DNA from: Thermoanaerobaculia bacterium
GTDB lineage: Bacteria > Acidobacteriota > Thermoanaerobaculia > Multivoradales > Multivoraceae
NCBI GenBank assembly: GCA_963664405.1
Contig: OY761158.1
Location: forward strand, 5,984,001-6,048,000
DNA length: 64,000 nt
Direction of reading: 5' to 3'
Part shown: positions 690 to 40,186 of the stretch, in pieces
Numbering within the stretch: the first letter of the stretch is position 1
How the letters are laid out: the number at the start of each line of letters is the position of its first letter
Notes under the pieces: model-generated
Database searches by the model: none
Told to the model about the DNA's origin: nothing
The model's input: the letters and a program-made list of their open reading frames with translations, nothing else
Position numbers and translations under genes: made by a program

Positions 690-921
690 TGATGAAATGG
701 ACTCCCTGGCGACTTCGATCGGCATCTGTGTGCCGCGGGTCGCCCAAACCGAAACTCTAGTACTGGAAGGGAGCCCCATGAAGCATACCGTTATCGGTGT
801 CGACCTGGCCAAGGATGTGTTCGAGATCGCCGTGTCGCATGAGCCGGGAAAGGTGGCGGACCGGCATCGAGTCCGAAGAGCTGGCTTTTTGTCTTTCTTC
901 GCACAACGCAAGCCCACGACG
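690..921 (+). mobile_element. IS110-family (IS1111-type) copy 1, left segment with first 48 codons of transposase (ATG 778)
   Basis: Identical to 42931-43162; sub-terminal IR ATGGACTCCC 7 nt from the end; GVDLAK motif. Confidence 0.95.
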
Positions 922-1593
922 ATTGAGCTACCGGTGCCGTTTGGCCCCAAGGCCCGCCTAGTACAGATCCACCTCGATACCGAAGCCATACGAACCCAGT
1001 GCCCCGAAATCGAAGTTGAAGACAGCATGACAGCCTTCGCTTCAAGCATTCTGGGATACGAACCCAACGGTCGGGAGCTTCGCGCCCTGAAAACACAGCT
1101 TGGTTCCCTTTCAGCCGCCACCATTCGCATAGCCAACACCGGGGATAAGCCGTTCCAGATCCAAACACACATCGTCTCAGCTTTCGACATCTGGTTTCCG
1201 AAGGACGCGAACCAGCGTGTTCTATGGCCCTCCGTGATCAAGCTCAGCTCTGACTACTACCAAACACTGATTGACCACGCCGTACCGCTCGATCCTCGCG
1301 CCGTTGCTGCTCTTTCCCACAGCGCAATGGGTCTCAGCATCTATTCGTGGCTGGCGCAGCGCCTGTGCCGCGTCAACCACAAACGCTCCTCTTTCGTTGC
1401 ATGGGCCAACCTTTGGGAGCAGTTCGGCCCGAACTACAAGAAGATCTTTAAGTTCCGCCAGGTCTTCAACGTCGCCCTGAAACAAGTGCTCAGCCAGTAC
1501 CCGCACGCAGAAGTCACTGTCAACGCGCACCGGGGCCTCACCCTTCATCATTCGCGGCCACCGATCGAGCGCGTTGCCTTGGTCCGTCAATAA
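922..1593 (+). pseudogene. repA: Plasmid replication initiator RepA, C-terminal ~223 aa, fused in frame to the IS110 N-terminus
   Basis: PFGPKARL, LWPSVIKLS..YY..L..HAVPLD, S...L.IYSWLAQRL and W..L..QFG motifs of the plasmid-encoded RepA family. Confidence 0.85.
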
Positions 1594-1617
1594 GCCCTAA
1601 TGAACACAGGCTTTTTC

Positions 1618-1806
1618 CACGGGCACTTTGGTAGACCCCCTGTGGCCAAGCCTGTGAATACACGCTTTTTTCCACGGGCACTTTGGTAGATCGCGCACGG
1701 GCACTTTGGTATAAGTTCGCCCTTTGTTCACGGGCACTTTGGTAGACAAACCTTTATCTAATCCCTATAGCTCTTTCCTGTAGTAGCCTCCCCCCCCTGT
1801 GGATAA
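1618..1806 (+). promoter_or_regulatory. Plasmid oriV: four 16-bp iterons plus a DnaA box
   Basis: CACGGGCACTTTGGTA at 1618, 1673, 1696 and 1729; TGTGGATAA (perfect DnaA box on minus strand) at 1798-1806; directly downstream of repA. Confidence 0.85.
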
Positions 1807-2374
1807 TTCCCACTCCAACCACCCAAACGAACCTACCCTTCCGCTCGCAAGCTCGCTGCGCCCCACACCCGAGGCGTGGCCTTTCAATGGAGGACGGCAC
1901 AGAATCCGTTGACTTTTCTTCCTGAACCTTATCGCCGCTATTCGCGACGAACGCTTCCATTGCTCGGCAGAGGGGTTGCTGAACGGCAAGATTACAGAAG
2001 AAGAAACCCGAAGCCACGTAAGGCCGGAAAGACGCAAGATCTGTGCCAAGGTCCAACCTAAACGACAATCGGAAAGATCAAACCCACGACCACCGGAGAA
2101 GTGGGGGAGCCGGAGAAGACGAGTTTCTCCTTGTTCCGGTTCCGCCACCGTGTCACCAATAGATCATGACCGACCAGATCACCATTACCTTCCGGTCCTT
2201 GAAGAAGCGCGAGAAGAAGGATTTTTCGATCCGTGCCGGTCCCTCCAGAAGTATCTGGACGGCCTCGACATGCTCCACGGCATCAGGGAAGCCCAGAAGA
2301 AGCGCAACCAGCAGGAGGAGCAGCCCCCGCTATGAAACTGGTCACGCTCGACAGCAGCACGCCGGATCAAAGAC

Positions 2375-2583
2375 GTGATGCTCGCCGCCGATCTTCCACC
2401 AGGACCACACCGCACCGCCAAGGGCTTGCGGCACGGCTACGGCATTGCAGCGATCAGCAAAGGTGTACCCCTGAACAATACTGCAGGAGTGCCTTGGACA
2501 CGCCAACATAGAAACCACAGCTATCTACGCCAACACAACGGGAAAAGGAGCGATACGCGATCGTCGCCCGAATGTGGGAATGA
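2375..2583 (+). pseudogene. Tyrosine recombinase C-terminal remnant
   Basis: PHRTAKGLRHGYGIAAISKGVPLN followed out of frame by LGHANIETTAIYA. Confidence 0.65.
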
Positions 2584-2806
2584 TCCGGTCCTACCGTCCC
2601 AACGCTCTCTTGGCCACGGCAACCACTTCCTCACAATCGGCAGGCAGAGCAACCCGCACCCCGTAGACCTGTTTGCCGCTTGTATCCTCCAGCTCCACAA
2701 TACACAGAGCCTTCTTCGGCCCCGACACGATCAAGCATGATCCTCAGATCGGCAAACACTGCGGCGAAAGCGTCCCCTACGTCCATAGCATCCTGATCCA
2801 CCGCAC

Positions 2807-3144
2807 CTACCCCTTGTCGATCAGAAAATCTTCGCGCTTCTTACCCGCCGCCTCCTGATCCACCAGCCAGCGCGGGGATTTTCCCCGACCAGACCAGGTT
2901 TCCTCCGCATTCGCCGGGTTGCGATATTTAGCAGCCACAGTTTTACGCGAACTTGGGTGCTTCGCAGGCGAGCCAAACAGATCAGCGAGCGTATAACCAT
3001 ACTTCGCCGCTACAGTCCTAAGCTATTTTCTTCGCGTTCTTCCTGTTCTCGTTCTCTACCGCCTTCTTTTGTTTGTCGATGTCCTTTTTCAGATCATCGA
3101 GTTCGGTGTAACTCAGGGAAGAAGTAAATATCCGGCTTGGCCAT
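2807..3144 (-). pseudogene. hns: H-NS family DNA-binding protein, frameshifted
   Basis: Manual translation gives ...VAAKYRNPANAEETWSGRGKSPRWL..., the H-NS core motif; two frameshifts in the N-terminal half. Confidence 0.8.
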
Positions 3145-3743: not shown

Positions 3744-5107
3744 GGATCCGTCCCGAATGCTGTGGAAATTGAGAATGGCGTAACCTCCTAGTGGTCAAAC
3801 ACATCGCCGGTTAGGGCGAACGGAGGATTACGCCATGGTGGAGAATATCAACGAGGAAGGGGAAGCTGCACGCTTCCGTCAGGACATTCGTTCGTTGTTA
3901 CGCGAGCGTGTTCGTGCGGCGATCGAGATCACACTCGAGGAAGAGCTGTCCGAGGCGCTGGGCTGCAGCGCCTACGAGCGTTCAGGCGAGCGTGCGGGCT
4001 ATCGCAACGGCAAGCAGCGTCGTCTGATCACGACGGCGTGTGGGTCGAAGGAACTGGACATTCCACGAGGACGGCTAGTCGGCGAGGATGGGGCCAGCGT
4101 AGAGTTTCGCAGTGCGATCGTGCCGCGTTACGCTCGTCGTACGCAGGAGGTCGATGACGCGATCCTGGGTGCGTATCTGGCTGGCGCTAACAGCCGCCGG
4201 ATCAAGAAGGCATTGGCTCCGCTGCTGGGTGAGGAGCACCTGTCCAAGAGCGCAGTTTCGCGTGTGGTGTCTCGGCTGAAGGAGCTTTTTGCTCGCTGGA
4301 GTGAGCGCGATCTGTCGGAGGAGTCCTACGTGCTTCTGTTTCTCGATGGCTTTCACCTGAAGGTCCGCTTGGCCCGTCGAGTGGTCTCGGTACCGGTGCT
4401 GGTGGTGCTGGGTGTGACTCCGGACGGCACCAAGGTGCTGGTGGCCTTACGTTTAGCCGCGAGCGAGGCCGCCGAGCACTGGAAGTGGCTGATCGAGGAT
4501 CTGAAGGCCCGAGGTCTTCAGGCTCCGCGCTACCTGGTCACGGATGGCCACAAAGGGCTGGCCGCGGCGCTGAAGGCTTGGCCTGAGGTCAAAGTCCAGC
4601 GCTGCGTCCAACACAAGTGGGAGAATCTGAAGAAACACTGCCCGGTGCACGCACACGACGAGCTGCGGCGTGACTGGCACTCGATCGTACGAGCCGAGGA
4701 CGCGGCACAGGCCCGCAAGGCCTACGCGGCGTTCGTCACCAAGTGGTCGCGACTAGTCCCGGCGGTGGCTCGCAGCCTTGAGGAGGCAGGGTTCCAGCTA
4801 CTGACCTTCTACGAGCTCCCCAAATCGCTGTGGAGTTCGGTGCGCACGACCAACGCTCTGGAGAACCTGAACCGCGAGTTTCGTCGCCGCACTAAAACCC
4901 AGGGCTCCTTTGCCACCGAGGCTGCCGGCGTCACGCTCCTCTGGGGGCTCGTCGCCTTCGGGCAGATACACCTGCGAAGGATTAACGGCTACCGGGCGCT
5001 TCAGCTCCTGCTCGAGGTTGAGAGGGCCGCGTAAACGGTAGGATTTAGCAAAAGACGACTCGGAGGACTACGCCTGAACCCATTTCCACAAAAAACGGGA
5101 CACATCC
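3744..5107 (+). mobile_element. IS256-family element, copy 1 (1364 bp)
   Basis: Ends GGATCCGTCCCG / CGGGACACATCC; 8-bp TSD TAAGAAGG (3736-3743, 5108-5115); same element as 40187-41550. Confidence 0.95.
3835..5034 (+). CDS. IS256-family transposase (399 aa)
   Basis: YRNG, LFLDG, VTDGHKGL, QRCVQHK and RTTNALENLNREFRRR motifs. Confidence 0.95.
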   Translation: MVENINEEGEAARFRQDIRSLLRERVRAAIEITLEEELSEALGCSAYERSGERAGYRNGKQRRLITTACGSKELDIPRGRLVGEDGASVEFRSAIVPRYARRTQEVDDAILGAYLAGANSRRIKKALAPLLGEEHLSKSAVSRVVSRLKELFARWSERDLSEESYVLLFLDGFHLKVRLARRVVSVPVLVVLGVTPDGTKVLVALRLAASEAAEHWKWLIEDLKARGLQAPRYLVTDGHKGLAAALKAWPEVKVQRCVQHKWENLKKHCPVHAHDELRRDWHSIVRAEDAAQARKAYAAFVTKWSRLVPAVARSLEEAGFQLLTFYELPKSLWSSVRTTNALENLNREFRRRTKTQGSFATEAAGVTLLWGLVAFGQIHLRRINGYRALQLLLEVERAA

Positions 5108-9425: not shown

Positions 9426-9459
9426 TATCTTGATTGATAATTACCTTTATGCTTCATAC
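9426..9459 (+). other. lox-like recombination site L (hybrid; right arm overlaps the integrase ATG)
   Basis: TATCTTGATTGAT + spacer AATTACCT; 21 bp are the exact reverse complement of 13096-13116. Confidence 0.65.
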
Positions 9460-10414
9460 AACACCGACCGAACCCGCCGCCCTCGCCCGACGCCCCGACA
9501 CGGTGGGGCCGCTGGCCGGCGCCACGCCGACCACGCGCCGGCTCGCCGACGCCTCTATCAGCCTCAACACCCGACGGGCCTACCTCGGCGCGCTGCGGCG
9601 CTTGGACGCATGGCGCGGGGCCGCCCCGGTTGACGACGCCTCGCTGGCCGTCTACCTCGGCGAGCTCTTCGAGGCGGGCCGCGCGCCCGCCACCGCCGCC
9701 CTTGCCGTCGCCGCCGTCCGGTTTCGGGCCAAGCTCGCCGGCCAGCCGGACCCCGCCGGGGAAGCGACCGCCCGCGTGTTGGGCGGCTACCGTCGCACGG
9801 CCGCCGACCGGGGCCGGGGCCAGGCCGCCCCGCTGAGCGCGGACGGGCTCGCCGCGATTCTCGCCACCGCCGAACGTCCCCGCACCGACGGCCGGGGCGT
9901 CGAATCCCACACCACGGCGCAACGCCGGGGCCGACTCGACGCCGTGATCGCCTCGCTGTTGTTCATGGGCGGGTTGCGCCGCTCAGAAGTGAGCGCGCTT
10001 GAATGGCGTGACGTGTCGGACGCCCGCGACGGCGACGGCGTGCTTATCACCGTGCGGACCTCGAAAACGAATCAAGAGGGGGACGCCGCCGACGTGCGGT
10101 ATCTCAAAAACGGCGCGGCGAAAGCGATCCGCACCCTTCGCGCCGCCGCCGCCGCCGCCGCACCCACGGATCGGGTGATCGGGTTGTCCCCGCTACAGAT
10201 TCAGAGAAGGTTCACCGCCGCCGCCCGCGCCGCCGGCATCGAGGCGCGCTTGACGGCGCACAGTGGCCGGGTCGGGCTCGCGTCCGAACTGACGGCGCGC
10301 GGCGCGTCGACAACCGAAGTCATGCTGGCCGGCAACTGGAAAACCGCCCGCATGGTCGCTCACTACTCGGCCGGCGCGACCGCCGAACGCGGGGCCGTCC
10401 GAAAGTATCTGTAG
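9449..10414 (+). CDS. Cre-like tyrosine recombinase
   Basis: GLRRSEV, TVRTSKTNQ, AHSGRVG and GNWKTARMVAHY catalytic set with W in place of the second H, as in Cre. Confidence 0.88.
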   Translation: MLHTTPTEPAALARRPDTVGPLAGATPTTRRLADASISLNTRRAYLGALRRLDAWRGAAPVDDASLAVYLGELFEAGRAPATAALAVAAVRFRAKLAGQPDPAGEATARVLGGYRRTAADRGRGQAAPLSADGLAAILATAERPRTDGRGVESHTTAQRRGRLDAVIASLLFMGGLRRSEVSALEWRDVSDARDGDGVLITVRTSKTNQEGDAADVRYLKNGAAKAIRTLRAAAAAAAPTDRVIGLSPLQIQRRFTAAARAAGIEARLTAHSGRVGLASELTARGASTTEVMLAGNWKTARMVAHYSAGATAERGAVRKYL

Positions 10415-10427
10415 GGAGGGAGTCACG

Positions 10428-10673: not shown

Positions 10674-10734
10674 TCCTTGCAGGTCCGGACGGTGTGGTCG
10701 AAGTCAGGTGGCCACGCTCGACTAGACTCTCGCC

Positions 10735-13130: not shown

Positions 13131-13179
13131 GCGGTGATTTTGACTTTTAATAGGCTGGGCTGTCTTATAGGGTATTGCT

Positions 13180-15621: not shown

Positions 15622-16295
15622 GGCGATGTCCTACTGACTGTTGAAAAGTGACGGTGATCCGTCCCCGATGAGAGATCATCGGGGTGTCATCCAAAACACA
15701 AGGAGGATCACCGTCATGAGTAAGAGTGCCAGAAGGTCGACGAAGAAGAAAGCCGAAGACGAATCCAGCGAAGTTCGGTCTCGAGGTGGGCTGATGGAAG
15801 TCCTGCGAGACTCCCGACTCGCCCTGCGAGAGCTGGTATTGGAAGCGGGCCTTGGAGTGTTCCAGGAGCTGCTTGAGGAGGACCGGGAGCGGCTGTGTGG
15901 CCGTCGCCATGAGCGCTTTGCCGATCGTGAGGCCTACCGTCACGGGCACGACGCAGGGCGGCTGGTGATGGGCGGTCGCCAGGTGCGGATCCGCCGTCCT
16001 CGGGTGCGGAGCAAAGACGGGGTGGAGCTGCGCTTGCCCACGTGGGAGGTGTCAACGGCGCTTAAGAAGCGCGCGATCCCGGCTTTCTGACCGCGTTTCC
16101 TGCTGAGAGTCTCTTCAGCATCATCGTCGCGCGCGAGCGCGCGAGCAGCGTGGCAGGTGGGAGTATGGGGAGACCGGCGGGGGCGACTCCAAGCAAGGTG
16201 ACCGCCCACCGCCGGAAGGCCTGGGGTATGACGCCCCAGAAGAGGGAGTATTCCGCCTGCGGGTGGCGAAGTCCAGGCCGAAGGAGGCCTGGGCC

Positions 16296-16787
16296 GTGCG
16301 CCGCCGTCCCGATTGTCGCCGTTTCGTTTGCGATCGTTGCCGGCAAGCTGTCTACATTTGCTCTTGGTGCGATCGCGGCCATCGTTATTGCACGCCGGAG
16401 TGCCGGGATGAGGCTCGGCGCCACAGCCTTCGCGGGGCCGGGCGTCGCTATCAGCAGACGCCGCGAGGGCGCCGCTTGCATGCTCGTCGTCAGCAGGCCT
16501 ATCGAGATCGCAAGCAGCAAGGCTCAAAGAAAGTGACGCATCACAGTTGCCGCACCGGGGGCTGCCCTGCGACGGTGGCGTCATGGCCCACCGCGCCGCT
16601 TCCGTTGTTTTTGCAAGGCTTGTCCGTTGGAGGTCGGAACGAGGAGCTTCTCTGCAGGCTGTGCCGCCATCCTTGCGAGCCGATTGTCCGCCACGACTTC
16701 TTGCGATCGCGCCGAGTACGCCCGGTGCGCAGGCGGGCGCGGGATGATCTCTCCCGAGCTCGCCGCCGAGATCCGCCGTCTCTATGA
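16296..16787 (+). CDS. Cys-rich Zn-finger/basic accessory protein of IS21-like element A
   Basis: CDRC-x6-CSWCDRGHRYC..EC, RYQQ, VTHH, C-terminal CRLC; RBS AAGGAGG; homologous to 27804-28199. Confidence 0.7.
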   Translation: MRRRPDCRRFVCDRCRQAVYICSWCDRGHRYCTPECRDEARRHSLRGAGRRYQQTPRGRRLHARRQQAYRDRKQQGSKKVTHHSCRTGGCPATVASWPTAPLPLFLQGLSVGGRNEELLCRLCRHPCEPIVRHDFLRSRRVRPVRRRARDDLSRARRRDPPSL

Positions 16788-19013: not shown

Positions 19014-19363
19014 TCCGACAGGAGTATCGCGCCGAGCTCATCCGCCTCTACCTCGACGCTCCTAAAACCCCGCCTAGACCTCGGCGCCGAGACTGGGCCA
19101 TCGCCGACAAGCTCTATCAAGCCAACGTCCCCCTCGAAGAGCTTGCCCATGCCATTCGACTCGCCACCTTGCGACGGCGCCTCAGCACCGATCCGCTGCC
19201 GCAGATTCACTCACTTGCCTACTACCGCTCCGTACATCGAGCCCTGACCAACGACGAGCTCGACCCTCAATACGTCCGCTACATCCTCCTTCGGCACCGG
19301 TCCCTTCTCGAGGAGGATGAAACCAAAAGCGCCACTACACAGCCGGAATCCCGCACTTTATGA
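19010..19363 (+). CDS. Conserved accessory ORF downstream of istB (element A)
   Basis: GTGA overlap with istB; Y...L.RLY...P.TP, LPQIHSLAYY and Y..Y shared with 30469-30825. Confidence 0.72.
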   Translation: MIRQEYRAELIRLYLDAPKTPPRPRRRDWAIADKLYQANVPLEELAHAIRLATLRRRLSTDPLPQIHSLAYYRSVHRALTNDELDPQYVRYILLRHRSLLEEDETKSATTQPESRTL

Positions 19364-26367: not shown

Positions 26368-27803
26368 GTCTTAGAGGAGCCAGCCGCCAGTCTCGAAAGG
26401 AGGACGAGAAGCTCGGGGTCTCCGAACGACTAGCGCGACCCGAGTGCGAGCGCTTCTCGCCGGTCTCGCAATCGACCGCCACCAGGCTCTCCGCAAAGAG
26501 GTTGTCGCCGAGGAGTTATTGTCAAATGTTGGGTACGGGGGCATCAGGCGGCGATGGTTGATGGATGTTCTCCGTCGACGAACTGGACTCCCCCGACAAC
26601 TTCAGCGAGATGGTGGAACCCTCTGAGTCGTCGCCATCGTTTCTCGGCACTCTGAGTGAGCTTGAAGACCATGGTGAGCATGGTCTCTCGCGACAGACAT
26701 CCCCTGGTCTTGGCAGTGCGAAGACGGACGGTGGCGAACGTCGATTCGATGGGATTGGTCGTTCGGAGATGAGGCCACTGCTGGCTGGGAAAGTCGTAGA
26801 AGGCGAGGAGCTCGTCCCGGTCTTTAGTCAGGCACTCGGCGGCTCGCGGGTACTTCGCTTCGTAGGTCTCTACGAAGGCATCGAACGCCTCATAGGCTTT
26901 CGCCCTCGTCTCCGCCTGCCAGATCTCGTGCAAGGCCTTCTTCGCCTTGGGCTGCGTCGACTTCGGCAGGGAGTTCAGGACATTCCCGGTCTTGTGCATC
27001 CAGCAACGCTGGGTGCGGGTGTCGCCGAATACCTTCGTGATCGCCTTCCAGAAGCCCAGGGCACCATCCGCGACCGCCAACTTGGGCGAGACGGCTACGC
27101 CGCGGTGCTTGAGATCCATCAAGATCTCCCGCCAAGACTGCTCGCTCTCGCGATAGCCCTCCTGAACCGCCAAGAGTCGCTTCTTGCCCGTTTCGTCAGC
27201 GCCGATCAGCACCAGGAGGCATAGCCGGGCGTCGTCGAAGCGGACGTTGCAGTAGATCCCGTCGGCCCACAGGTAGACAATCTGCTGGCGACCCAGGTCG
27301 CGCTTGGACCAGCTCTCGAATTCCTGGAGCCAGTCCTTCTTCAGCCGGCTGATCGTGGAGGCCGACAGACCCTTCGCGTTGGGCCCAAGCAGAGCGCTGA
27401 GTGCCTCACCGAAGTCGCCCGTCGAGATGCCGCGCAAGTACAGCTGTTGATGGCTGCGAGAAAGCGCATCCCGTTGGCTGCGAGCGCAGTTTCCGGGATG
27501 GAGTGAGCTGAGGGCTTCGCGACCGCGGGAAAGCTAGGCCTTCTTCAGGAAGGGCGGCATCATCCCGCCGGAACGGCGGTCCGGGTGCGTGGTCCCGGCG
27601 GCGTGTTTGCGGTCGGAAGAGATGCGTGAGTCGGTGTAGGGCTTTGCAGTGCGGGCTCTGCTCTGATAGAGCAGGCCGACCAGAGACGGCGAGAGCCCGG
27701 GAAAGCGAAGTAGAAAACGCCCCGGGCTCTGCCCCAAACCGCAGCATTAGCTGCGCTTGCAGTATGGCAGAGAGTCGGGGTCGTCGTCGAATGGGAGGCG
27801 ACG

Positions 27804-28199
27804 ATGCGACCGGACTACCGACTCTTCGACTGTGCTCGATGCCGTCGGCGTATCTCGCTGTGCTCGCACTGTGACCGTGGCCAGCGTTACTGCCGGGCTT
27901 GTGCTCTGGTGGCTCGTCGGGAATCGACTCGGGCGGCCGGCCATCGGTACCAGCGAAGCCTCCGAGGTCGGCATTGTCATGCCGCCCGTCAGGCCCGCTA
28001 CCGTCGGCGCCAGCGCGAGCGGGCAGAGAAAGTGACGCATCAGGGTACCCCAGGCGGTACTTCGGGGAGGACACTGTGTCGGATCGAGACTCCGAGGCGC
28101 GAAGTGCGCTACGACCCGAGGAATCCGCGATGCATGCAGTGTGGAGAGGCCTGCCGAGAGTTTGTGCGAACGAGCTTTCGTCGTTGCCGACGGAGATAG
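27804..28199 (+). CDS. Cys-rich Zn-finger/basic accessory protein of IS21-like element B
   Basis: CARC-x6-CSHCDRGQRYC..C, RYQ, VTHQG, CMQC; RBS GGAGG. Confidence 0.72.
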   Translation: MRPDYRLFDCARCRRRISLCSHCDRGQRYCRACALVARRESTRAAGHRYQRSLRGRHCHAARQARYRRRQRERAEKVTHQGTPGGTSGRTLCRIETPRREVRYDPRNPRCMQCGEACREFVRTSFRRCRRR

Positions 28200-28203
28200 G
28201 GGC

Positions 28204-29712
28204 GTGATCGACGCACAGCTGCGCGGGGAGATCCGTCGTCTGTTCCTGGTCGAGAAGTGGAAAGTCGGCACGATCGCTCGACAGCTACAGCTGCACCCCT
28301 CAACCGTGCGCCGGGCGCTGGAGAAGTCCGGCGTGCTACCCCAGCAGCGACGAGGGAGGATGATCGATCCTTACCTGCCGTTCATCGAGCAGGTGCTCGG
28401 GACCTACCCACGACTGCCGGCGAGCCGTCTCTACACCATGGTGGTGGAGCGCGGCTATCCAGGAGGCCCGGATCAGTTTCGCCACCTGGTGGCCTCGATG
28501 CGACCGAAGCCCCAGCGCGAGGCGTTTCTCTCGCTGCGCATGCTGCCAGGAGAGCAGGCGCAGGTCGACTGGGGCCACTTCGGTCGGCTCCGCGTCGGCC
28601 GGGCACATCGTCGGCTCTATGCCTTCGTCTTCGTGCTGTCGTTCTCGCGCACGGTCTTCGTGCACTTCACCCTCGACACTCGTCTCGAAACCTTCTTGCA
28701 CGCTCACCAGCTGGCCTTCCACTACGTCGACGGCGTCGTCAGGACCGTTCTGTACGACAACCTGCGAACCGCGGTGATCGAGCGGCAGGGAACCGCGGTG
28801 CGCTTCCATCCCGTGCTGCTCGATTTCGCCAGCCACTACGGCTTCCTTCCCACCGTCGCCGCGGTGGCTCGGGGAAATGAGAAAGGCCGCGTCGAGCGCG
28901 CAATCCGCTTCCTGCGAAGCTCGTTCTTCGGCGCCCGAACGGTGAGCGATTTGGATCGTCTGAATCGGCAGGTCCTGGAATGGTGCCAGAGGTCGCAGCG
29001 CAGACCCTGGCCGCAGGACCGACAGCGAACCGTGAAAAGCGCCCTGGCCCAGGAACGACCTCGACTGCTTGAGCTTCCCGGAGACGACTTCGAAACCGAC
29101 CTGCGACTGGAGATCAAGGTCAGAAAGACGCCGATCGTGCGCTTCGACCTCAACGACTACTCGGTGCCGCACAGTCATGTGCAGAGGACCGTCACGCTCC
29201 TCGCCAGCGAGCATCGGGTGCGGATCCTCGATGGCCAGGAGCTCCTCGCCGAGCACCCTCGCTCGTACTCCCGGGGCGAGCAGATCCTCGATCCTCAACA
29301 CCTCGAGGAGCTCCTCGCTCACAAACGCAGGGCCCGACGACACCGGGGCTTCCATCGGCTGTTTTCCGCTGTGCCTCGATGCGAAGAGCTGATGCAGCAG
29401 CTCGCCGAGCGAGGCGAGAACCTCGGAACGCAGACCGCCGGCCTGCTCCGACTCCTGCGCCAGTACGGCCCCCAGCGACTCGACAAAGCCGTGCGCGAAG
29501 CGCTCCTGAACCACGCACCGCGATTCCAGTCCGTCCGGCTCCTACTCGAACGGCACCAGCGCGGCCTCGGTCAGCCCCCGGCTTTACCGGTGCCGCTCAG
29601 CCAGGAGCTCCAACAGCGAGATCTCTCCGTGAGACCGCACAACCTCGAGGACTACGACCAACTTGGAGGCAACGACGATGGCCCGACCCAGGAAGAGTCC
29701 AACGATCCCTGA
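28204..29712 (+). CDS. istA: IS21-family transposase IstA
   Basis: PGEQAQVDW, LYDN and EKGRVER. Confidence 0.93.
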   Translation: MIDAQLRGEIRRLFLVEKWKVGTIARQLQLHPSTVRRALEKSGVLPQQRRGRMIDPYLPFIEQVLGTYPRLPASRLYTMVVERGYPGGPDQFRHLVASMRPKPQREAFLSLRMLPGEQAQVDWGHFGRLRVGRAHRRLYAFVFVLSFSRTVFVHFTLDTRLETFLHAHQLAFHYVDGVVRTVLYDNLRTAVIERQGTAVRFHPVLLDFASHYGFLPTVAAVARGNEKGRVERAIRFLRSSFFGARTVSDLDRLNRQVLEWCQRSQRRPWPQDRQRTVKSALAQERPRLLELPGDDFETDLRLEIKVRKTPIVRFDLNDYSVPHSHVQRTVTLLASEHRVRILDGQELLAEHPRSYSRGEQILDPQHLEELLAHKRRARRHRGFHRLFSAVPRCEELMQQLAERGENLGTQTAGLLRLLRQYGPQRLDKAVREALLNHAPRFQSVRLLLERHQRGLGQPPALPVPLSQELQQRDLSVRPHNLEDYDQLGGNDDGPTQEESNDP

Positions 29713-30472
29713 CGAACCACTACGAGAGCTCGCCCGATCCCTCGGCTTCTACGCCCTCGTCGACGACTGGGGCACCTACCGAGAACAGCCCTGGCTCGAA
29801 CAGCTGCTGCGCAAAGAAGAGGCCGAGCGCAAACGGCGCAGCCTCGAACGGCGCATCCGCACCAGCCGCGTCGGGCTCTTCAAGAGCATCGCCGACTTCG
29901 ACTTCTCCTGGCCCCAGCGCATCGACCGCGAGCAGATCCAGGATCTGCTCACCCTCCAATTCCTCGACGACATCACCAACGTCATCCTCCTCGGACCCAA
30001 CGGTGTCGGCAAGACCATGATTGCCAAGAACCTCCTCTACCAGGCGCTGCAACGAGGGGCCACCGCCAGCTTCGTCACCGCCTCCGACATGCTCAACGAT
30101 CTCGCCGTCCAGGAAACCCCCTCGGCGCTCCAGAGAAGGCTCTCCAAATACACCCGACCCTCGCTTTTGGCAATCGATGAGCTCGGCTATCTCTCCTACG
30201 ACCACCGCCACGCGGATCTCCTCTTCGAGGTCGTCTCCAGGAGATACGGCAACAAGCCCATTCTTCTCACCACCAACAAGCCCTTCGCCGAATGGGCCGA
30301 GGTCTTTCCCAACGCCTCCTGCGTCGTCACTCTCGTCGATCGACTCACCCACCACGCCGAGATCGTCAAGATCGAGGCTAACTCCTATCGCCGCAAGGAG
30401 GCCAAGGAGGCTGCTGAAAAAAAGGCCAAGGACCGCGCCAAAAGGCGGAGCGCAGCACGACGACGCTCATGA
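29678..30472 (+). CDS. istB: IS21-family AAA+ helper IstB
   Basis: GPNGVGKT, IDELGY, TTNK and DRLTH. Confidence 0.95.
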   Translation: MARPRKSPTIPDEPLRELARSLGFYALVDDWGTYREQPWLEQLLRKEEAERKRRSLERRIRTSRVGLFKSIADFDFSWPQRIDREQIQDLLTLQFLDDITNVILLGPNGVGKTMIAKNLLYQALQRGATASFVTASDMLNDLAVQETPSALQRRLSKYTRPSLLAIDELGYLSYDHRHADLLFEVVSRRYGNKPILLTTNKPFAEWAEVFPNASCVVTLVDRLTHHAEIVKIEANSYRRKEAKEAAEKKAKDRAKRRSAARRRS

Positions 30473-30825
30473 CCCGAAGCCACTATCGGCGCCAGCTCCT
30501 CCGCCTCTATCGACTCCTTCCCGACACCCCGCACCGCTTCCACCACGGCGACCGCGTCATCGTCGACCAGCTCTTCGACCAAGACCTGCCTCTCACCGTC
30601 CTCCAGGCCGCCCTCCTCCTCGGCTCCGCCCGACGCGCATGCCGAGATCCGCGCCTACCAAAGCTCCAGCCCATCCGATCCCTCGCCTACTTTCTCCCCA
30701 TCCTCCGAGAACTCCCCACGACGCCACCCCCCGAGGGGTACCTCGACTATCTGCGCCACACCCTGAGTCACGCCTCGCGGGGACAAAAAACCGACTCGCA
30801 GCCAACTAAGTGCGCTTTCTCGTAG
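30469..30825 (+). CDS. Conserved accessory ORF downstream of istB (element B)
   Basis: ATGA overlap; LQPIRSLAYFLP and YLDYL; homologous to 19010-19363. Confidence 0.72.
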   Translation: MTRSHYRRQLLRLYRLLPDTPHRFHHGDRVIVDQLFDQDLPLTVLQAALLLGSARRACRDPRLPKLQPIRSLAYFLPILRELPTTPPPEGYLDYLRHTLSHASRGQKTDSQPTKCAFS

Positions 30826-32250
30826 CCGGTAACAACAGCAGCGGAAGCAGCTCCTCGATGCTCTTGGACTTGCGAAGGTAGCGCGGCACCAGTTTCGACT
30901 CGAAGCGGATCGGCTCCTCTGTCTCACCCCGGTCCCGCACTCGCGGGACTCGCACCGGGACGTCGCCGATTCCAGTCTGAATCGACCGCTCCGGCAGATG
31001 CCCGTTGCGCACCAGCCTCTGTCTACCGGCTGAGTCGCGCTCCTCTGCGTAGTGCTCGAGCAGCTCGCCCACTTCCGCCTCGACCGCCACCCGGAGCAGC
31101 TCCTGGGCTCCTTGTCGCAGCACCTCGGTCAAGGCGTCATCCACACTCGCTGTACCTGGCTCTCTGAAGCGCTCTGCGTTACCCTGAACCACGGCGTATC
31201 CTCCTTCTCCGGAAGGTCCCAAGGTCGTTGAACAACCTCAGGATACGCCGCCTTCAAACCTCCTCATACACAACTTTCGACCATAGCTCGTCGCCGAGTC
31301 GGTGGCCGCCGTAAAGGTCGTTGGTCGGTGTGCTGATCGGCAGATAGGCGAGGCCGAGCTCTTCGTCGACAGCGATCATCGACCACACACATTGGTATTA
31401 CCCGTGTACTTCCAGGACTCGTTCTCCCAGGTCTCGCTGCCCTCCTCTCCCTGCTGCGGATGGTGTGAAAGACCCACGCCAGGGCGCCGCTCTCGGCATC
31501 GTAGGCACGCACGAAGCTCGGCGGCCCCCCCTGGTGGGTGACGCCATCGGAAACGATCGAGCCCACGATCACCGTGTCGCGGCAGATCGCCGCCGGCGAG
31601 CTGTGCGTCGTTCGGGACTCGAGGATCTTGCGGCCCAGGTCTTTGGTCATCTCCACCGCGCCGTGCTTGCCGAAAGTGGGGTCGGGCCTGCCGGTCATGG
31701 TGTCGAGAGAGAGCAGGCGACGGTCATGTGTGGCCATCATCACGCGTTGTTTTGTGCCCCTGTGCCAAACCGCCACGCCGCGATGCTGAAAGCCCTCATT
31801 CGCTGGCCGCCCCGCCTCCCAGCTCTGCGGGTCGTAGCTCCACAGCGGCTTGCCCGAGGTGGCGTCGATCGCCGCCACCTGACCGAGGGGCGTGCTCACG
31901 TACATGCGCCCGTCGATCACCACGGGAACCGCCTTGAACTTGAAGGACCCCAGGCGTATCGCTTCCGGCAGGTTCGGAATCTGGCCGTCGACCGACTCCC
32001 AGGTCCAGGCCACCTCTAGCGGGTCGAAGTTGCCGGCATCGATCTGGTCGAGAGGCGAATACTTCGCGTTGCCGGGGTTGTTGCCGAAGTTCGGCCAGTC
32101 GGTGCTCTGCGCGGCCGAGGCCGCTGCGAGGAGCAGCGGTGCCGCAGCCATGGTGAGGAGCAGGGTCTTTGGGTTGGTCAAGACGAGAGAACAGCGTGTT
32201 CAAGATCACGATTCGTCCGCCCGAGATGCCGGTGGGGCCGACTGCGGAGA

Positions 32251-35095: not shown

Positions 35096-35138
35096 TACCG
35101 TCATCGGTAGGCACAGTTGTGTTTGTTACCAACACTAG

Positions 35139-36615
35139 CCCCAATTCGCGAATAAATCAGGCGGCTCGGAGGGCTTTAGCGACTCTTTGGAAGTCTTGTT
35201 GAGCGGCGGCTGAAGTGCCGAGGTCGAGGGTGATTCGGCCAGCAGGGTGAAGGAGGACGCCGGCTCGGCCGAGGAGTTTGAATCGCAGGGTGTGGATGGT
35301 TTCGAAGCGATGCAGAGTTCTCCGTTTGCGAGTCCGTGAGCGGGGCTGCGGGCGTGCCGCGACCTGAAACGACCGGGCGAGGTTGAAGGCGAGGACGCTG
35401 AGCACTTGCCAGGCAGCATTGGCCGCTGCCTTGAGACTGGGGACACAGTTGAACGCGAAGCCGTTGCGTAACTCAGCGTAGGCCTTCTCGTGGGTCCCTC
35501 GACCGTTGAGGAAGTGCCACAGATTCCGGCCGTTCAGCTGTTTGTTGGTGGTGATCGCCGAGTACTCGTAGTGGCCGTCGTCGGGGTCGAACAGGTCGAG
35601 CTGGAAGTTCTTGCGCGTCTCGTGAGCCACCCGCTTGCGGTAGAGCACGATGCGGCGCACCTGGTTCCAGGCGGCCACCCGAGTGCGGGTCTCACAAAAG
35701 CTCACCGTGTCGTCGATGCGGATCCACTTCGCAGCCTGAGCCACCGCCGTCTTCAGGTGCAGCCAGGGGTAGAACGGGACCTTGATCGCGTACTCCGCCC
35801 TCGCCGAGTCCAGGAACTCCAAGACATCCCGGCGAAAGAACGCCCCGTCCATGCGGAACTCCAGGCGTACGCCACGATCGACCGTGGCGCGAATCTGGTC
35901 GAGAAGCGCTGAGAGAAAGTTAAGAGACGCTTTTCCATCGTGCACGTTGCCTGGGCGGTTCTCGACCCGCAGGATCTGACCCGACTGCGCCTCGTAGGCG
36001 GTGATCGGGTAGTAGCTCGGAACCTTCCGGTGGTGAGGGTTGAAGCCACGCTTCGCTCCTTCGACCGTCTGTCCGGTCGACACCACCGAGCCGTCGACAT
36101 CGATCGTCAAACGCGCCAGTCTCGCCTTCTGAAGAGCCTCGCCCACCACCTCAGAGTTCAGCCGCACCAAACGCGCCACGTGACTCTCAGACAGTTGCGC
36201 CAGCCACCCGCTCACGGTCCTCGGCGACGGCAGTCGGCGGAGTCCGGCGAACCGGGCCAAGATCGGATCCGACTGCACGTAGCGAAGGTGCCAGATCCGC
36301 CGACCGCCGACCATCAGAAGGCCAAGCAGCACAAGGAGCATCGGAACGGTGCCGAAGTCGCTCGCGAAACCTCCGCCTCTGAAGGAAGTCCCGGAACAGC
36401 TCCAATCCGGCGTGCGAAGTAACTTGCTGCAGGCCGCACCGGTACCCGACCCGACCGTTGACCCGACCCCTGAGATCTGCTCTGCTTAACCGCACTGAGA
36501 GTGCCCTTTCGTTGTGGTGACTTCTTTCGGCTTTGACACCCGAAGTACACCACAGCGGAGGGCCCTTTCGCTTCTTAGACCACCAGATCAGACCGCTCTT
36601 TTTCGCGAATTGGGG
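35139..36615 (-). mobile_element. IS1380-family element; transposase about 36495-35157 with N-terminal frameshift or deletion
   Basis: TIR CCCCAATTCGCGAA / TTCGCGAATTGGGG; IDVDGS, GFNPH, RMDGAFF and N.RG..E motifs; flanks CTAG and CTAA do not match exactly. Confidence 0.85.
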
Positions 36616-37426: not shown

Positions 37427-37470
37427 CATGCTAGCATGACTGCATGCAAGCATGTTCGCATGTTTTCATG
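37427..37470. repeat. Centromere-like CATG array (6 units, 8-bp period) upstream of parA
   Basis: CATG at 37427, 35, 43, 51, 59 and 67. Confidence 0.75.
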
Positions 37471-37536
37471 CTACTCCCTTCAAGGCCCGGATCGGCCTCC
37501 CCTCTCTCGGTATCAACAGCAACAGGAGTTTTCATC

Positions 37537-38193
37537 ATGGCTATCAAAGTAGCCGTCGTTTCCCAGAAAGGCGGTGTCGGAAAAAGCACCATCGCCCGTC
37601 TGATTGGCCGCGAGTTTGCCCACAATGGCTGGCTTGTCAAGATCGCGGACATGGACGTGCAGCAAGGAACCAGCTACCACTGGTACAAACGCCGAGCTGC
37701 CAATCAGGTAGTACCGGAGATCCGCACCGAAACCTTTACGAGCGTCAACATAGCCCTGACCGAAGCGGACAATTTCGATCTGTTCATCTTTGACGGTGCG
37801 CCCCACGCCACTGCTGCTACCCGAGACATGGCCCTTGCCTCCGATCTGGTGATCCTGCCTACGGGCCTTGCTGTTGATGATCTGCACCCGCAAATAGGGC
37901 TTGCTCACGAACTAACCCACCAGCACGGCCTGGAACCGGACAAGCTCGCCTTTGTCCTCTGGCGGGTAGGTGACAGCGAAATCGAGATACGGCACGCAAG
38001 GGAGTACATCGAGACAGCAGGCTACAGCGCCCTTGCCGGTGACGTGCCGGAACGCACCGCCTATCGTCGTGCAAGCGACGCCGGACGCACTGCCACCGAA
38101 ACGCAGTACAAAACCCTCAACCACCGCGCCGACATAACCGCACAGAGCATCATCGACGCAATCACCAAGATTGCCAACAGAAAGGCCGCTTAA
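37537..38193 (+). CDS. parA: Short ParA (type Ib) partition ATPase
   Basis: SQKGGVGKST, DMDVQ and IFDGAP; RBS AGGAG. Confidence 0.92.
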   Translation: MAIKVAVVSQKGGVGKSTIARLIGREFAHNGWLVKIADMDVQQGTSYHWYKRRAANQVVPEIRTETFTSVNIALTEADNFDLFIFDGAPHATAATRDMALASDLVILPTGLAVDDLHPQIGLAHELTHQHGLEPDKLAFVLWRVGDSEIEIRHAREYIETAGYSALAGDVPERTAYRRASDAGRTATETQYKTLNHRADITAQSIIDAITKIANRKAA

Positions 38194-38430
38194 ATGAGCA
38201 AGATAGATGGACTTAAAAAGCCCACAAACAACCCCAAGGGAGCGCCACCCGGACCAGCCGAGGCACCGGCGAACCTTCTGCGACCCCCGATAGGGGAGAG
38301 CGTACCGTTTCAGGTCCGAATACCCGCCACCTACAAGCGCGACTTCAAGACAGATGCAGCAGCCAGCGAAATCACTTCCAGTCAACTGTTCTTAAAGGTG
38401 TACGACTTCTACAAAGAACACCATGCATGA
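38194..38430 (+). CDS. Small ParA partner (probable centromere-binding RHH protein)
   Basis: Directly follows parA; flexible N-terminus then PFQVRIP...K..FK..A. Confidence 0.7.
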   Translation: MSKIDGLKKPTNNPKGAPPGPAEAPANLLRPPIGESVPFQVRIPATYKRDFKTDAAASEITSSQLFLKVYDFYKEHHA

Positions 38431-38461
38431 CAGCATGCTTGCATGCAATCATGCTTGCATG
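38426..38461. repeat. Second CATG array (5 units, 8-bp period)
   Basis: CATG at 38426, 34, 42, 50 and 58. Confidence 0.7.
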
Positions 38462-38852
38462 ATACAACATGGAAATGGTTTGTTAAGACTTTTCCTGTAT
38501 CAATGAAGGGGAAACACAGTCTCGTTGTGAACAGTGGAGAAGGGGAGCACATGGCGGATTTGGAAGACTTCTACTACGACCAAAAAGCTACAGAGCTGGC
38601 AGAGAAGCTAGTACGGACGCTCCAACAGGACCGCGACGAACTCGGCAACGAAGCGCGAGCCAATCTCAGCCGCGAACCGAATCGAAGAAACATCCATCAT
38701 CCCAAAGACACGGCCAAAATCGCCCTTCAACTTGGCTGCTGATACATCTGCCACTGAAGTCCTCCAACCCCCGCCAGCCCTCAAGCCGGAGCCGCCTGGA
38801 CCCACAGGACCGTGATTTACCGAATCCAGACGGTAAAGGAGAACCGAAAATC

Positions 38853-39338
38853 ATGAAACATAATCCATTCCTCCTAGCTCCCATCATGCTTCTCTTTCTT
38901 GTCAATCCTGCCAATGCTGCCATTTCAGGGTCTAGCTACATGAACGACTTAGACGATGTGCAGCGCGAAGCGTTTCTGTTTGGTGCCCTAGAAATGGCCA
39001 TCTCCATCTATTCCAAAGAGGAGAGAGGTGAGAAGGCGGTTTGTGTGGGCCAGTGGTTTTCCAGTTCGAGAGAGGACGCTGAGAAGGAGATAATGGATTT
39101 CATGTCCAATCCCAACAATGGAAAATACACCGCATCAGGTCTTATAGGAATTAATTGTGGTGGATCGGCATTGCCCCGACGATCCGAAAACCACAGCGCA
39201 GCCGAGTGGGGGAGGGGAGTACAACAATTTGACCCACTGCAAGGCGATCATCAAACTAAACAGCATGCAAGCATGAATACATGCAACCATGCTGGTTTGT
39301 GGACACCTGCACGTTGTCGGTTGACGGGTTTAGAGTAA
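38853..39338 (+). CDS. Secreted hypothetical protein (3' end probably frameshifted)
   Basis: RBS AAGGAG, signal peptide ending ANA-A. Confidence 0.5.
   Translation: MKHNPFLLAPIMLLFLVNPANAAISGSSYMNDLDDVQREAFLFGALEMAISIYSKEERGEKAVCVGQWFSSSREDAEKEIMDFMSNPNNGKYTASGLIGINCGGSALPRRSENHSAAEWGRGVQQFDPLQGDHQTKQHASMNTCNHAGLWTPARCRLTGLE
39264..39291. repeat. Third CATG array (4 units, 8-bp period)
   Basis: CATG at 39264, 72, 80 and 88. Confidence 0.65.
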
Positions 39339-39486
39339 CCCTGCACGATCGAGCAGTAGAAAATACGGATATGCACGCATTAGGCGTGGTTTAGATCTGT
39401 GAACAACTAGAAGTTGAGTATTGACGAGCGCAGAAGAAGCATGCCACCATCGCATCTGATACAACGCCAAGCGGGAAGAACAAGGT

Positions 39487-39783
39487 ATGACCAAACAGAG
39501 GGATCGGGGAGAAGGGTTTCAAGAGATCGGCGGACTGATTCAGAACGTTGTGAAGGAGTACAAGGAGTACAAGCCTCTTAGTCTGGTGGAGAAGCGGCTA
39601 ATCAAGAATTCCACCGAGATCAGGACATTTCCACCCGAAGAAGTAAACTTCCTGCACTCGCTCTTCTGCCAAACTATCTTGCCCTATCGCAGCCTCCCTG
39701 AGCGCGTTTGGGAACATGCCAATGGCCGAGCAAATGTCCGCGTCGAAGCGGGGAGCGCCTATCACCCGGACAGCGACAAATTC
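39487..39783 (+). pseudogene. repA: RepA N-terminal 99 aa, fused in frame to IS110 codons
   Basis: FLHSLFCQTILPYR, W...NG...RVEAG..Y.P; continues logically into IELPVPFGPKARL at 922. Confidence 0.85.
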
Positions 39784-39837
39784 GTGGTCATGGAGGCCTG
39801 TGGCTCCGCGCACTACTGGGGCCGGGAAATAGGAGAG
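39784..39837 (+). mobile_element. IS110 copy 1, middle segment (VVMEACGSAHYWGREIGE)
   Basis: Identical to 43163-43216. Confidence 0.95.
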
Positions 39838-40186
39838 TGAGAGTGAGCACGATAATCGATGGCGGTCCGATCACGATAAGTGATGGTCGCGTAGCCTTTT
39901 GAAGGACTTAGCCGAAGCTGCGTTTCGCTGCCACTTGCCTCAGACGGTCTTGTTCACAGTATTTGATGGCGATTCGAGGAAACCCGATCACGTTGTCTGG
40001 TGGGAATGGGTGTTCCGTTCAAGGTATCTGAGGGCGCAACCAGGGGCCCAAGCGCGATGGAAGCTCGGCGAACCGCCTCGATCGCCCATCAGATAGCGTG
40101 CCGTTCATCCCATCGCTGCGTGTCAGCCCTCGTTCAGCGTGATCAGCGAAAGAACAAGTATGGACTGCGCGTCAGGCCCCGACGGC

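What the first reader, a model, noticed from the sequence alone, without database searches (positions are those of the whole stretch)
778..39840. A 38.9-kb plasmid integrated by a precise, homology-free reciprocal exchange between repA and an IS110 gene
Seen: the left junction is CCCACGACG|ATTGAGCTA (921/922) and the right junction is GACAAATTC|GTGGTCATG (39783/39784). Removing the insert restores the IS110 base for base (compare 43162/43163). Circularising it restores an in-frame repA (PDSDKF|IELPVPFGPKARL) preceded by par and followed by iterons. There is no TSD, no shared core and no lost IS base. Both junctions make in-frame chimeras (IS110-N/RepA-C and RepA-N/IS110). Known: tyrosine, serine and IS110 recombinases need a shared core, and DDE enzymes leave TSDs. 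Inference: this is blunt illegitimate (topoisomerase- or end-joining-like) integration or an unknown site-specific route. Splitting repA silences the replicon and would stabilise the integrant, like integrase-splitting att sites. The same IS256 inside and outside the insert suggests both DNAs shared a cell.
Basis: partly seen in the sequence, partly recalled or inferred. Interest (0 to 1): 0.8.

Follow-up and report, generated by a model that had tools for sequence, protein, structure and literature searches.

The report
Plasmid seamlessly spliced into the chromosome
A 38.9-kb plasmid has been joined into a bacterial chromosome by one clean cut-and-swap between its replication gene and a transposase gene, with no shared sequence and no base lost or gained, which is a rare, well-resolved natural example of recombination without homology.

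Summary
An IS110-family transposase gene is interrupted after codon 48 (window 921|922) by 38,862 bp that end at 39783|39784. Removing the insert restores the IS110 exactly. The two ends of the insert are the two halves of a RepA_C replication gene, and they abut with no gap or overlap on 58 of 59 homologues. A parA gene lies upstream and four exact iterons lie downstream. The junction is not an assembly artefact. The window lies inside a single 6.78-Mb contig, and k-mer contigs from three runs (two samples, two studies) run from IS110 into repA-C. A fourth run, from a third sample, carries repA unsplit and lacks one IS256 copy, so the parental plasmid form exists in nature. The two crossover sites share no homology or core, resemble neither the IS110 target nor its donor, and match no CRISPR spacer. 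A genome-wide scan found this to be the only seamless split by non-IS DNA. It is therefore a real, one-off, conservative, homology-independent reciprocal exchange. The mechanism is inferred: type II topoisomerase partner-swapping is most likely. Ku–LigD joining of two blunt breaks is the main rival, and both genes are present. This is a new member of a known kind, of moderate interest.

The parts
615..689 (+). REP-like genome-wide repeat unit; left half of the target into which IS110 copy A inserted
   Evidence: 132 blastn-short hits in the genome. Contigs of other copies continue after 689 with CACGCTCCTAG, which is the empty target (loose ends).
690..921 (+). IS110-family element, copy A, first 232 bp; transposase codons 1-48 at 778-921
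   Evidence: Pfam DEDD_Tnp_IS110 and Transposase_20 match the intact copy B.
922..1593 (+). repA 3' part (residues 100-322 and stop), fused in frame to IS110 codons 1-48
   Evidence: Pfam RepA_C PF04796, E 4e-12. Its start maps to residue i+1 of 58 of 59 homologues.
1618..1744 (+). Four exact 16-bp iterons (CACGGGCACTTTGGTA); presumed origin of replication
   Evidence: 4 matches against 0.02 expected.
3744..5107 (+). IS256-family IS (1,364 bp, Transposase_mut) with an 8-bp duplication TAAGAAGG; absent from the plasmid form in run X9
   Evidence: One search shows the joint 3734>5108 in X9.
9434..10414 (+). Tyrosine recombinase (Phage_integrase domain), 8.5 kb from the nearest junction
16050..19375 (+). 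IS21-family element (istA 16627-18243, istB 18240-19013), six or more near-identical chromosomal copies
27445..30834 (+). Second IS21-family element (about 20 full-length copies in the genome), nested with a 5-bp overlap in an IS256-family copy (26508-27444 plus 30835-31293)
35135..36362 (-). DDE_Tnp_1_4 IS, three further full-length chromosomal copies
37444..38193 (+). parA (P-loop partition ATPase)
   Evidence: CbiA/ParA/MipZ families.
37427..39291 (.). Three clusters of the palindromic 12-mer CATGCAAGCATG (37427-37454, 38434-38461, 39264-39291), lying before parA, before a 99-aa ORF and before repA; likely par or regulatory sites
   Evidence: 8 matches against 0.21 expected.
39487..39783 (+). 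repA 5' part (residues 1-99), fused in frame to 18 IS110 codons
   Evidence: In run X9 the last 30 nt of this piece directly precede 922.
39784..39837 (+). IS110 copy A, next 54 bp (transposase codons 49-66)
   Evidence: copy B positions 264-317 at 100% identity.
39838..41686 (-). 1,849-bp composite (IS256-family element nested in a MITE-like element) inserted in IS110 A with a 5-bp duplication GAGAG
41687..42844 (+). Rest of IS110 copy A; its first 5 bp are the duplicated GAGAG
42845..42930 (+). 86 bp of REP-like units between copies A and B (right half of A's target plus left half of B's target)
   Evidence: (76 genome hits for the 67-nt unit).
42931..44369 (+). IS110 copy B, intact (1,439 bp; ORF 43019-44056); reference for the uninterrupted site at 43162/43163

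Best explanation
Shown: a plasmid with an iteron-type RepA_C replicon now sits in the chromosome because of one conservative, reciprocal, homology-independent break-and-rejoin. The break fell between repA codons 99 and 100 on the plasmid and between transposase codons 48 and 49 of an IS110-family element on the chromosome. The event split repA, leaving the iterons without an intact initiator. The integrated form is carried by bacteria in at least two samples, while a close variant with unsplit repA persists in a third. Inferred: the chemistry was most likely that of a type IIA topoisomerase (gyrase or topo IV). Two cleavage complexes, one on each DNA, would swap halves and religate. Because the enzyme holds the ends covalently, no base is lost. 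The 4-nt mismatched stagger is then resolved at the next replication, which leaves what looks like a blunt, seamless, reciprocal crossover. Selection then kept an integrant in which both interrupted genes were dispensable and the plasmid origin was disabled.
For: Structure: (exact complementarity of both junctions in both partners; 58 of 59 homologues collinear). Reality: the window is internal to a single 6.78-Mb contig whose start is not at dnaA. Contigs 892-3771 (X6, X7) and 892-2429 (X8) start 30 nt inside the IS110 and run into repA-C. X6 holds 0.99 of the sampled words of window 1-3700. Parental form: in X9 the sequence before 922 is the last 30 nt of repA-N, with 4 SNPs and an empty IS256 site nearby. 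No homology or core. No likeness to the IS110 target or donor: 1-7 of 24 positions, and shift scans of 6-8 of 16 against a null mode of 8. One-off: a genome-wide scan of 48 split repeat copies found this as the only seamless split by non-IS DNA, and clean nested IS insertions show 3-14-bp overlaps. Topoisomerase reading: the exchange is conservative and reciprocal, as the partner-swap model predicts (passages of PMC11164529 read, which cite Ikeda 1981-2004). The IS110 site is a perfect dyad, CCAC-GACG|GTGG, with the crossover at one of the two 4-bp-staggered positions; 1.1% of random junctions show this.
Against: No direct evidence names the enzyme. The dyad was noticed after the fact, is present at only one of the two sites, and about 2% of site pairs would show it by chance. 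The eLife paper itself says the older gyrase experiments used crude extracts and that subunit exchange was never proven. The contigs crossing 921|922 have 30 letters on the IS110 side, not 31, which is one short of the tool's bridging rule. That is the k-1 overlap expected at a repeat branch, but it is still short of the rule. All four runs were laid as contigs, so I could not count reads or measure the ratio of integrated to free forms. X9 contigs break at 921 and 922, so X9 may hold both forms.
Confidence: 0.42

Rival explanations
1. Ku-LigD non-homologous end joining. The plasmid was linearised by a blunt double-strand break inside repA and was captured in a blunt chromosomal break inside the IS110 gene. 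Both joints were ligated faithfully.
For: The genome encodes Ku (162.8 bits, intact 298-aa frame). Next to it is an 857-aa ATP-dependent ligase frame consistent with LigD. NHEJ repair with capture of 30 bp to 18.8 kb of DNA at break sites is documented in Streptomyces (PMC5869714, passages read).
Against: It needs two simultaneous clean blunt breaks and four untouched ends. Bacterial NHEJ commonly trims or adds bases (recalled, not from a call), yet none of the four ends shows any change. No source of blunt breaks was found: the genome has no Cas1, and no spacer-like match exists to either site.
Confidence: 0.3
2. A recombinase acting on non-cognate sites. Candidates are the plasmid's own tyrosine recombinase, a Xer-type enzyme or an undescribed system. 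It would exchange one pair of strands, with the junction resolved by replication, so no shared overlap would be needed.
For: A tyrosine recombinase gene lies in the insert (9434-10414). Single-strand exchange with replicative resolution is known for some tyrosine recombinase reactions (recalled). The crossover is exact on both partners.
Against: The two sites share no arm or core similarity. The recombinase gene is 8.5 kb from the junction. All 160 other listed RepA loci are unbroken across this codon, though the list is biased to best scores. No second such event was found in this genome.
Confidence: 0.1
3. Off-target bridge-RNA recombination by the IS110 recombinase itself or a relative.
For: One partner is an IS110 element, and three copies plus a related 85%-identical family are in the genome.
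Against: The crossover is 232 bp inside the element, not at its ends. There is no shared core dinucleotide, which bridge recombination base-pairs in all four guide interactions (PMC11208160, passages read). Likeness of either site to the natural target or donor is at chance level. No bridge-RNA family was detected, although such RNAs may not be in Rfam.
Confidence: 0.03
4. Assembly or record artefact: a chimeric contig, or two circular replicons linearised at arbitrary points and concatenated.
For: Concatenating two arbitrarily opened circles would give exactly this seamless, reciprocal, homology-free pattern.
Against: The window is 0.8 Mb from the end of a one-contig assembly that is not rotated to dnaA. 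Junction-spanning 31-mers are present in contigs built independently from three runs of two samples and two studies.
Confidence: 0.03

Closest known systems
[quoted passage not shown]
   Same: Reciprocal joining of two unrelated duplexes with no homology and, by its chemistry, no loss of bases. One site here has the twofold symmetry around a 4-bp stagger expected of a type IIA cleavage site.
   Different: That system was described in extracts and with quinolones between lambda and a plasmid. Here the event is a natural plasmid-chromosome fusion fixed in a wild population, and no enzyme has been shown.
Ku-LigD NHEJ capture of DNA at double-strand breaks (e.g. Streptomyces, PMC5869714)
   Same: Homology-free insertion of kilobases of DNA at a break. 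The host has both genes.
   Different: The junctions here carry no trimming, fill-in or added bases at any of the four ends.
IS-mediated or integrase-mediated plasmid integration (Hfr-type cointegrates, integrative plasmids)
   Same: The outcome is the same: a whole plasmid colinear in the chromosome, rich in the host's IS elements.
   Different: There is no repeat, IS end, att core or TSD at either junction, although the plasmid shares at least six IS families or segments with the chromosome that could have served for homologous recombination.
Bridge-RNA (IS110/IS621) recombination
   Same: It is seamless, leaves no TSD and can fuse whole replicons. An IS110 element is one partner.
   Different: It requires a shared core dinucleotide and guide-matched flanks at the element's ends. 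Here the crossover is internal to the IS and the cores differ.

Membership tests
Iteron-type theta plasmid replicon with RepA_C initiator (PF04796) | RepA_C domain in the initiator | tested here: met
   E 4.1e-12, 47.1 bits against a cut-off of 26, on the 3' piece.
Iteron-type theta plasmid replicon with RepA_C initiator (PF04796) | Full-length initiator once the insert's ends are joined | tested here: met
   58 of 59 homologues show the N piece ending at i and the C piece starting at i+1. The pieces were never joined.
Iteron-type theta plasmid replicon with RepA_C initiator (PF04796) | Directly repeated iterons next to rep, and a partition ATPase | tested here: met
   four exact 16-mers; ParA-type ATPase.
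Iteron-type theta plasmid replicon with RepA_C initiator (PF04796) | Exists as an autonomous circle | tested here: inconclusive
   X9 holds repA unsplit, but contigs cannot show a closed circle or a copy number.
IS110 family | DEDD N-terminal domain plus Transposase_20 C-terminal domain | tested here: met
   copy B: PF01548 at 9.6e-14 and PF02371 at 8.6e-29.
IS110 family | Site-specific insertion without a TSD, often into repeated extragenic sequences | tested here: met
   copies A and B each sit between ...TACTCGGA and CACGCTCCTAG of REP-like units.
IS110 family | Bridge RNA encoded in a non-coding end | tested here: inconclusive
   no Rfam match. A 313-nt non-coding right end exists.
Bridge-RNA recombination product | Shared core dinucleotide and guide-matched flanks at both partner sites | tested here: not met
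   the bases flanking the crossover differ (G|G against C|A), and likeness to the target or donor is 1-7 of 24.
Tyrosine or serine recombinase integration | Identical overlap or core at attP and attB | tested here: not met
   no shared run at the junction.
DDE transposition | Target-site duplication and defined element ends | tested here: not met
   0-bp overlap. The insert's ends are two halves of a gene. Nested ISs in the same genome show 3-14 bp overlaps.
Homologous (IS-mediated) cointegration | The same repeat at both junctions | tested here: not met
   the junction flanks are unique plasmid sequence.
Ku-LigD NHEJ | Host encodes Ku and LigD | tested here: met
Ku-LigD NHEJ | The event depends on Ku/LigD | not testable with these tools
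   This needs genetics in a tractable host.
Type IIA topoisomerase-mediated illegitimate recombination | Conservative reciprocal exchange without homology | tested here: met
Type IIA topoisomerase-mediated illegitimate recombination | Enzyme cleavage with a 4-bp stagger at both crossover sites | not testable with these tools
   The only hint is the 4-4-4 dyad at the IS110 site. The plasmid site has none.

The most novel reading that the evidence does not exclude
The exchange was made by an undescribed recombination system that can fuse two replicons at sites sharing no core at all. It could be a guided or structure-recognising enzyme. The repA codon and the IS110 position would then be chosen rather than accidental, and repA-splitting would be a regular way for this plasmid family to become chromosomal.
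Probability: 0.07. Interest if true: 0.85.

Novelty: new member of a known kind. Interest (0 to 1): 0.45.

Why it matters
Plasmid-to-chromosome capture is normally explained by shared IS elements or dedicated integrases. Here both were available or nearby and neither was used. The event is resolved to the base, and both parental sequences are known: an intact IS110 copy in the same genome and an unsplit repA in another natural sample. Both parental forms and the product could therefore be recovered from public runs. That makes it a usable natural test case for a long-debated question: whether topoisomerase partner-swapping or bacterial end joining moves genes between replicons in the wild. In practice, it also shows that a complete plasmid maintenance module inside a chromosome-sized contig need not be a binning or assembly error.

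Tried and rejected
1. Record-boundary or concatenation artefact. Rejected: the window is C1:5984001-6048000 of a one-contig genome, and dnaA lies at 3.42 Mb.

2. My own model: an IS110 circle crossed into repA, then homologous recombination with a chromosomal IS110 gave [A-left][plasmid][A-right][B]. It predicts that A's right end abuts B's left end directly. Rejected: 86 bp of genome-wide REP-like repeats lie between them (76 and 132 hits), so A and B are separate insertions.

3. CRISPR or other guided blunt breaks. The genome has no Cas1, and no sequence elsewhere matches across either site beyond chance 13-17-mers.

4. Off-target IS110 bridge recombination. The sites do not resemble the target or donor. 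Rfam gave only a sub-threshold, unrelated sRNA hit.

5. Recurrent repA splitting elsewhere. The best 80 loci from genome contigs (of 328 confirmed) and the best 80 from metagenome contigs (of 529) all cover the split point. Only the best scores are listed, so split copies could have been missed. This is a weak negative.

6. Relatives. 0 of 40 other genomes of the same family or order hold window 922-3700, apart from one 41-bp hit.

7. Genome-wide scan for other seamless splits. The first version was too noisy and missed the known event because the 54-bp piece fell below threshold. The refined version found 48 split copies. Only two clean ones had zero overlap: this one and a 1,325-bp IS-like insert. 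The scan sees only splits of repeated sequences.

8. Second RepA_C gene at C1:5772163-5772615. No IS copies lie within 45 kb, and no boundaries were found. My ORF pick showed no significant likeness to the split RepA and may not have been the right frame. Left open.

10. Depth figures are one value per contig, so I draw no copy-number conclusion from them.

11. Literature. The search 'illegitimate recombination + topoisomerase + plasmid + integrated into the chromosome' gave one unrelated paper. I did not find a natural base-resolved case in print, but three to four searches of an open-access library cannot show there is none. Supplements were not consulted. Table S3 of PMC5869714 (junction scars) might bear on how often NHEJ joints are scarless.

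Full report
WHAT IS THERE. The window is positions 5,984,001-6,048,000 of a single 6.78-Mb contig.
- From the left it starts with the end of a chromosomal gene (to 572) and a REP-like repeat unit (615-689).
- Next come the first 232 bp of an IS110-family element (690-921, transposase codons 1-48), followed by 38,862 bp of foreign DNA (922-39783).
- The IS110 then resumes with its next 54 bp (39784-39837). A 1,849-bp nested MITE/IS256 composite follows, with a 5-bp duplication (39838-41686), and then the rest of the IS110 (to 42844).
- After 86 bp of REP-like units comes a second, intact IS110 copy (42931-44369), and then chromosome.
- A third intact IS110 copy lies 0.5 Mb away.

BLAST of the intact copy places its positions 16-263 on 673-921 and 264-317 on 39784-39837. 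The IS110 is therefore cut between two adjacent bases, with nothing lost or duplicated.

The insert ends are two pieces of one gene. The 3' piece (922-1590) carries Pfam RepA_C. I aligned the two pieces separately to 59 database homologues. In 58 of them the 5' piece ends at residue i and the 3' piece begins at i+1. The remaining homologue is an N-terminally truncated fragment. Both chimeric reading frames are open, which only requires equal codon phase at the two sites, a 1-in-3 chance.

Around the restored gene lie parA and three clusters of a palindromic 12-mer (8 matches against 0.21 expected). Immediately downstream are four exact 16-bp iterons (4 against 0.02 expected).

The rest of the insert carries two TonB-dependent receptor genes, a tyrosine recombinase, PQQ-propeller and CBM96 proteins, and at least six IS copies identical to chromosomal ones. 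No transfer genes were seen among the frames scanned.

IS IT REAL? Seamless, reciprocal, homology-free junctions are exactly what concatenating two arbitrarily opened circles would give, so I tested that first. The window is internal to the only contig, and the contig is not rotated to dnaA.

Six public runs from three samples and two studies hold 0.88-0.99 of the sampled words of window 1-3700. I laid four of them on window 1-6000; all are kept as k-mer contigs.
- In X6 and X7 (one sample) and in X8 (another sample, another study), a contig starts at 892 and runs to 3771 or 2429. It begins 30 nt inside the IS110 and continues into repA-C.
- Thirty letters is one short of the tool's own bridging rule. 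It is the k-1 overlap expected where a three-copy repeat branches, and it still means that 31-mers containing IS110 sequence followed by repA-C bases are in those reads.
- One of these samples may be the source of the assembly, so at most one other is independent.

THE PARENTAL PLASMID FORM EXISTS. In X9, from a third sample, the contig covering 922-1087 is preceded by a loose end whose last 30 letters are exactly window 39754-39783, the end of repA-N. The median length of that loose part is 255 nt. So repA is unsplit there.

The same run shows four substitutions between 1019 and 1647. A contig in it also joins 3734 to 5108, which is an empty site for the IS256 copy at 3744-5107. This is a close but distinct lineage of the plasmid, not a revertant. 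X9 contigs break at 921 and at 922, so X9 may hold the integrated form as well; contigs cannot settle that.

WHAT MECHANISM? Four routes were excluded by test.
- Homologous recombination: the junction flanks are unique, although the plasmid shares many ISs and 97-99% identical segments with the chromosome that could have been used.
- DDE transposition: there is no duplication here, whereas clean nested IS insertions in this genome show 3-14-bp overlaps.
- Tyrosine or serine recombinases and bridge-RNA recombination: the bases flanking the crossover differ (G|G against C|A). The longest shared run in 100 bp is 5-6 nt and lies away from the junction. Neither site resembles the IS110's own target (...TACTCGGA|CACGCTCC...) or its donor ends; matches are 1-7 of 24 positions, at chance level. 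The bridge recombination paper states that the core dinucleotide takes part in all four guide pairings (PMC11208160, passages).
- Guided blunt cutting by a CRISPR system: the genome has no Cas1 and no spacer-like match to either site.

I also rejected my own two-step idea of a permuted IS110 circle in repA followed by homologous recombination. It requires the two IS110 copies to abut directly, yet 86 bp of genome-wide REP-like repeats separate them.

What remains is a single conservative, reciprocal, homology-independent break-and-rejoin. Two known chemistries can do that.

The first is a type IIA topoisomerase. Two cleavage complexes swap halves and religate, so the covalently held ends cannot lose bases. 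The 4-nt heteroduplex segregates at the next replication into products that look like a blunt reciprocal crossover at one of the two staggered positions. This second step is my derivation from the known 4-bp stagger; it does not come from a call. The model and its uncertain standing are described in PMC11164529 (passages). One post hoc hint fits it. The IS110 site is a perfect dyad, CCAC-GACG|GTGG, with the crossover at a stagger position. That is seen at 1.1% of random junctions, but the plasmid site has no such symmetry.

The second is Ku-LigD end joining of a blunt-broken plasmid into a blunt chromosomal break. The genome has Ku and an adjacent 857-aa ATP-ligase frame. DNA capture at NHEJ-healed breaks is documented (PMC5869714, passages). 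Four untouched ends from two simultaneous clean blunt breaks is a demanding requirement, however.

I put the topoisomerase route at about 0.4, end joining at about 0.3, a recombinase acting on non-cognate sites with replicative resolution at about 0.1, and artefact and bridge recombination at about 0.03 each.

WHY THESE TWO GENES? There is no sign of site choice. All 160 listed RepA loci from other genomes and metagenomes are unbroken at this codon, though the lists keep only the best scores. None of 40 relatives carries the plasmid. A genome-wide scan found no second seamless split by non-IS DNA. The simplest reading is selection after a random event: an integrant survives best when the chromosomal gene hit is dispensable (an IS) and the plasmid initiator is disabled. 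This is inference.

COMPARISON AND VERDICT. The element is a member of the RepA_C iteron-plasmid kind and the host gene is a member of the IS110 family, both by domain tests. The event works like topoisomerase- or NHEJ-type illegitimate recombination and fails the defining tests for transposition, site-specific integration, bridge recombination and homologous cointegration. It is a new, unusually well-resolved natural member of a known kind, not a new system. Its value is that both parental forms and the product could be recovered from public samples, which makes the mechanism testable.

TOOLS THAT WERE CLOSED. The search of earlier findings and the listing of cluster members were unavailable, and the 1982 junction-structure paper was not held.

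Noticed in passing
window 615-689, 42845-42930 and genome-wide: Two families of short REP-like repeats (about 75 nt and 67 nt, with 132 and 76 genome hits) both end in ...TACTCGGA followed by CACGCTCCTAG. IS110 copies A and B sit exactly between these two motifs, so this IS targets a REP-like unit, and the two window copies occupy adjacent units. Copy C has the variant ...TTCTCGGA on its left and a different right flank.
   Followed up: partly
window 39838-41686 and about 8 other genome sites: The apparent IS256 is a nested pair: a 1,364-bp IS256-family element inside a ~485-bp MITE-like element with its own inverted ends. The MITE alone, the IS alone and the 1,849-bp composite all occur as separate mobile units in the genome. 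The composite makes 5-bp duplications and the IS alone makes 8-bp ones.
   Followed up: partly
G000:C1:5772163-5772615 (minus strand): A second RepA_C-family gene (91.4 bits, open frame intact) lies in the chromosome 212 kb from the window. It has no IS copies within 45 kb and no obvious boundaries, so it may be an older captured replicon.
   Followed up: partly
window 8721-10931: This stretch is 97-98% identical to chromosome C1:1284745-1285849, except that 9189-10428, which holds the tyrosine recombinase gene, is replaced there by about 42 bp. It could be a ~1.24-kb recombinase-only mobile unit or a deletion in the chromosomal copy.
   Followed up: no
window 22681-26367 and 31798-34496: The plasmid's TonB-dependent receptor and CBM96 protein genes are 99.4% and 97.1% identical to a chromosomal block at C1:894524-902098, so plasmid and chromosome have exchanged several kb of non-IS DNA.
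   Followed up: no
G000:C1:2891273-2892599: This is the only other clean zero-overlap split of a repeat in the genome. The 1,325-bp IS-like insert (278-aa frame, partial relatives elsewhere) evidently inserts without a target duplication.
   Followed up: partly
window 778-1593: The left chimera fuses 48 transposase residues to RepA residues 100-322 directly upstream of the intact iterons. If expressed from the IS110 promoter, it might bind iterons and interfere with incoming related plasmids. This is pure speculation.
   Followed up: no
loci L027, L029, L048, L049, L058: Intact RepA_C genes lie in Mb-sized contigs or complete chromosomes of several Planctomycetota (for example a complete 9.4-Mb chromosome), so chromosomal copies of this initiator family are not rare there.
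   Followed up: no
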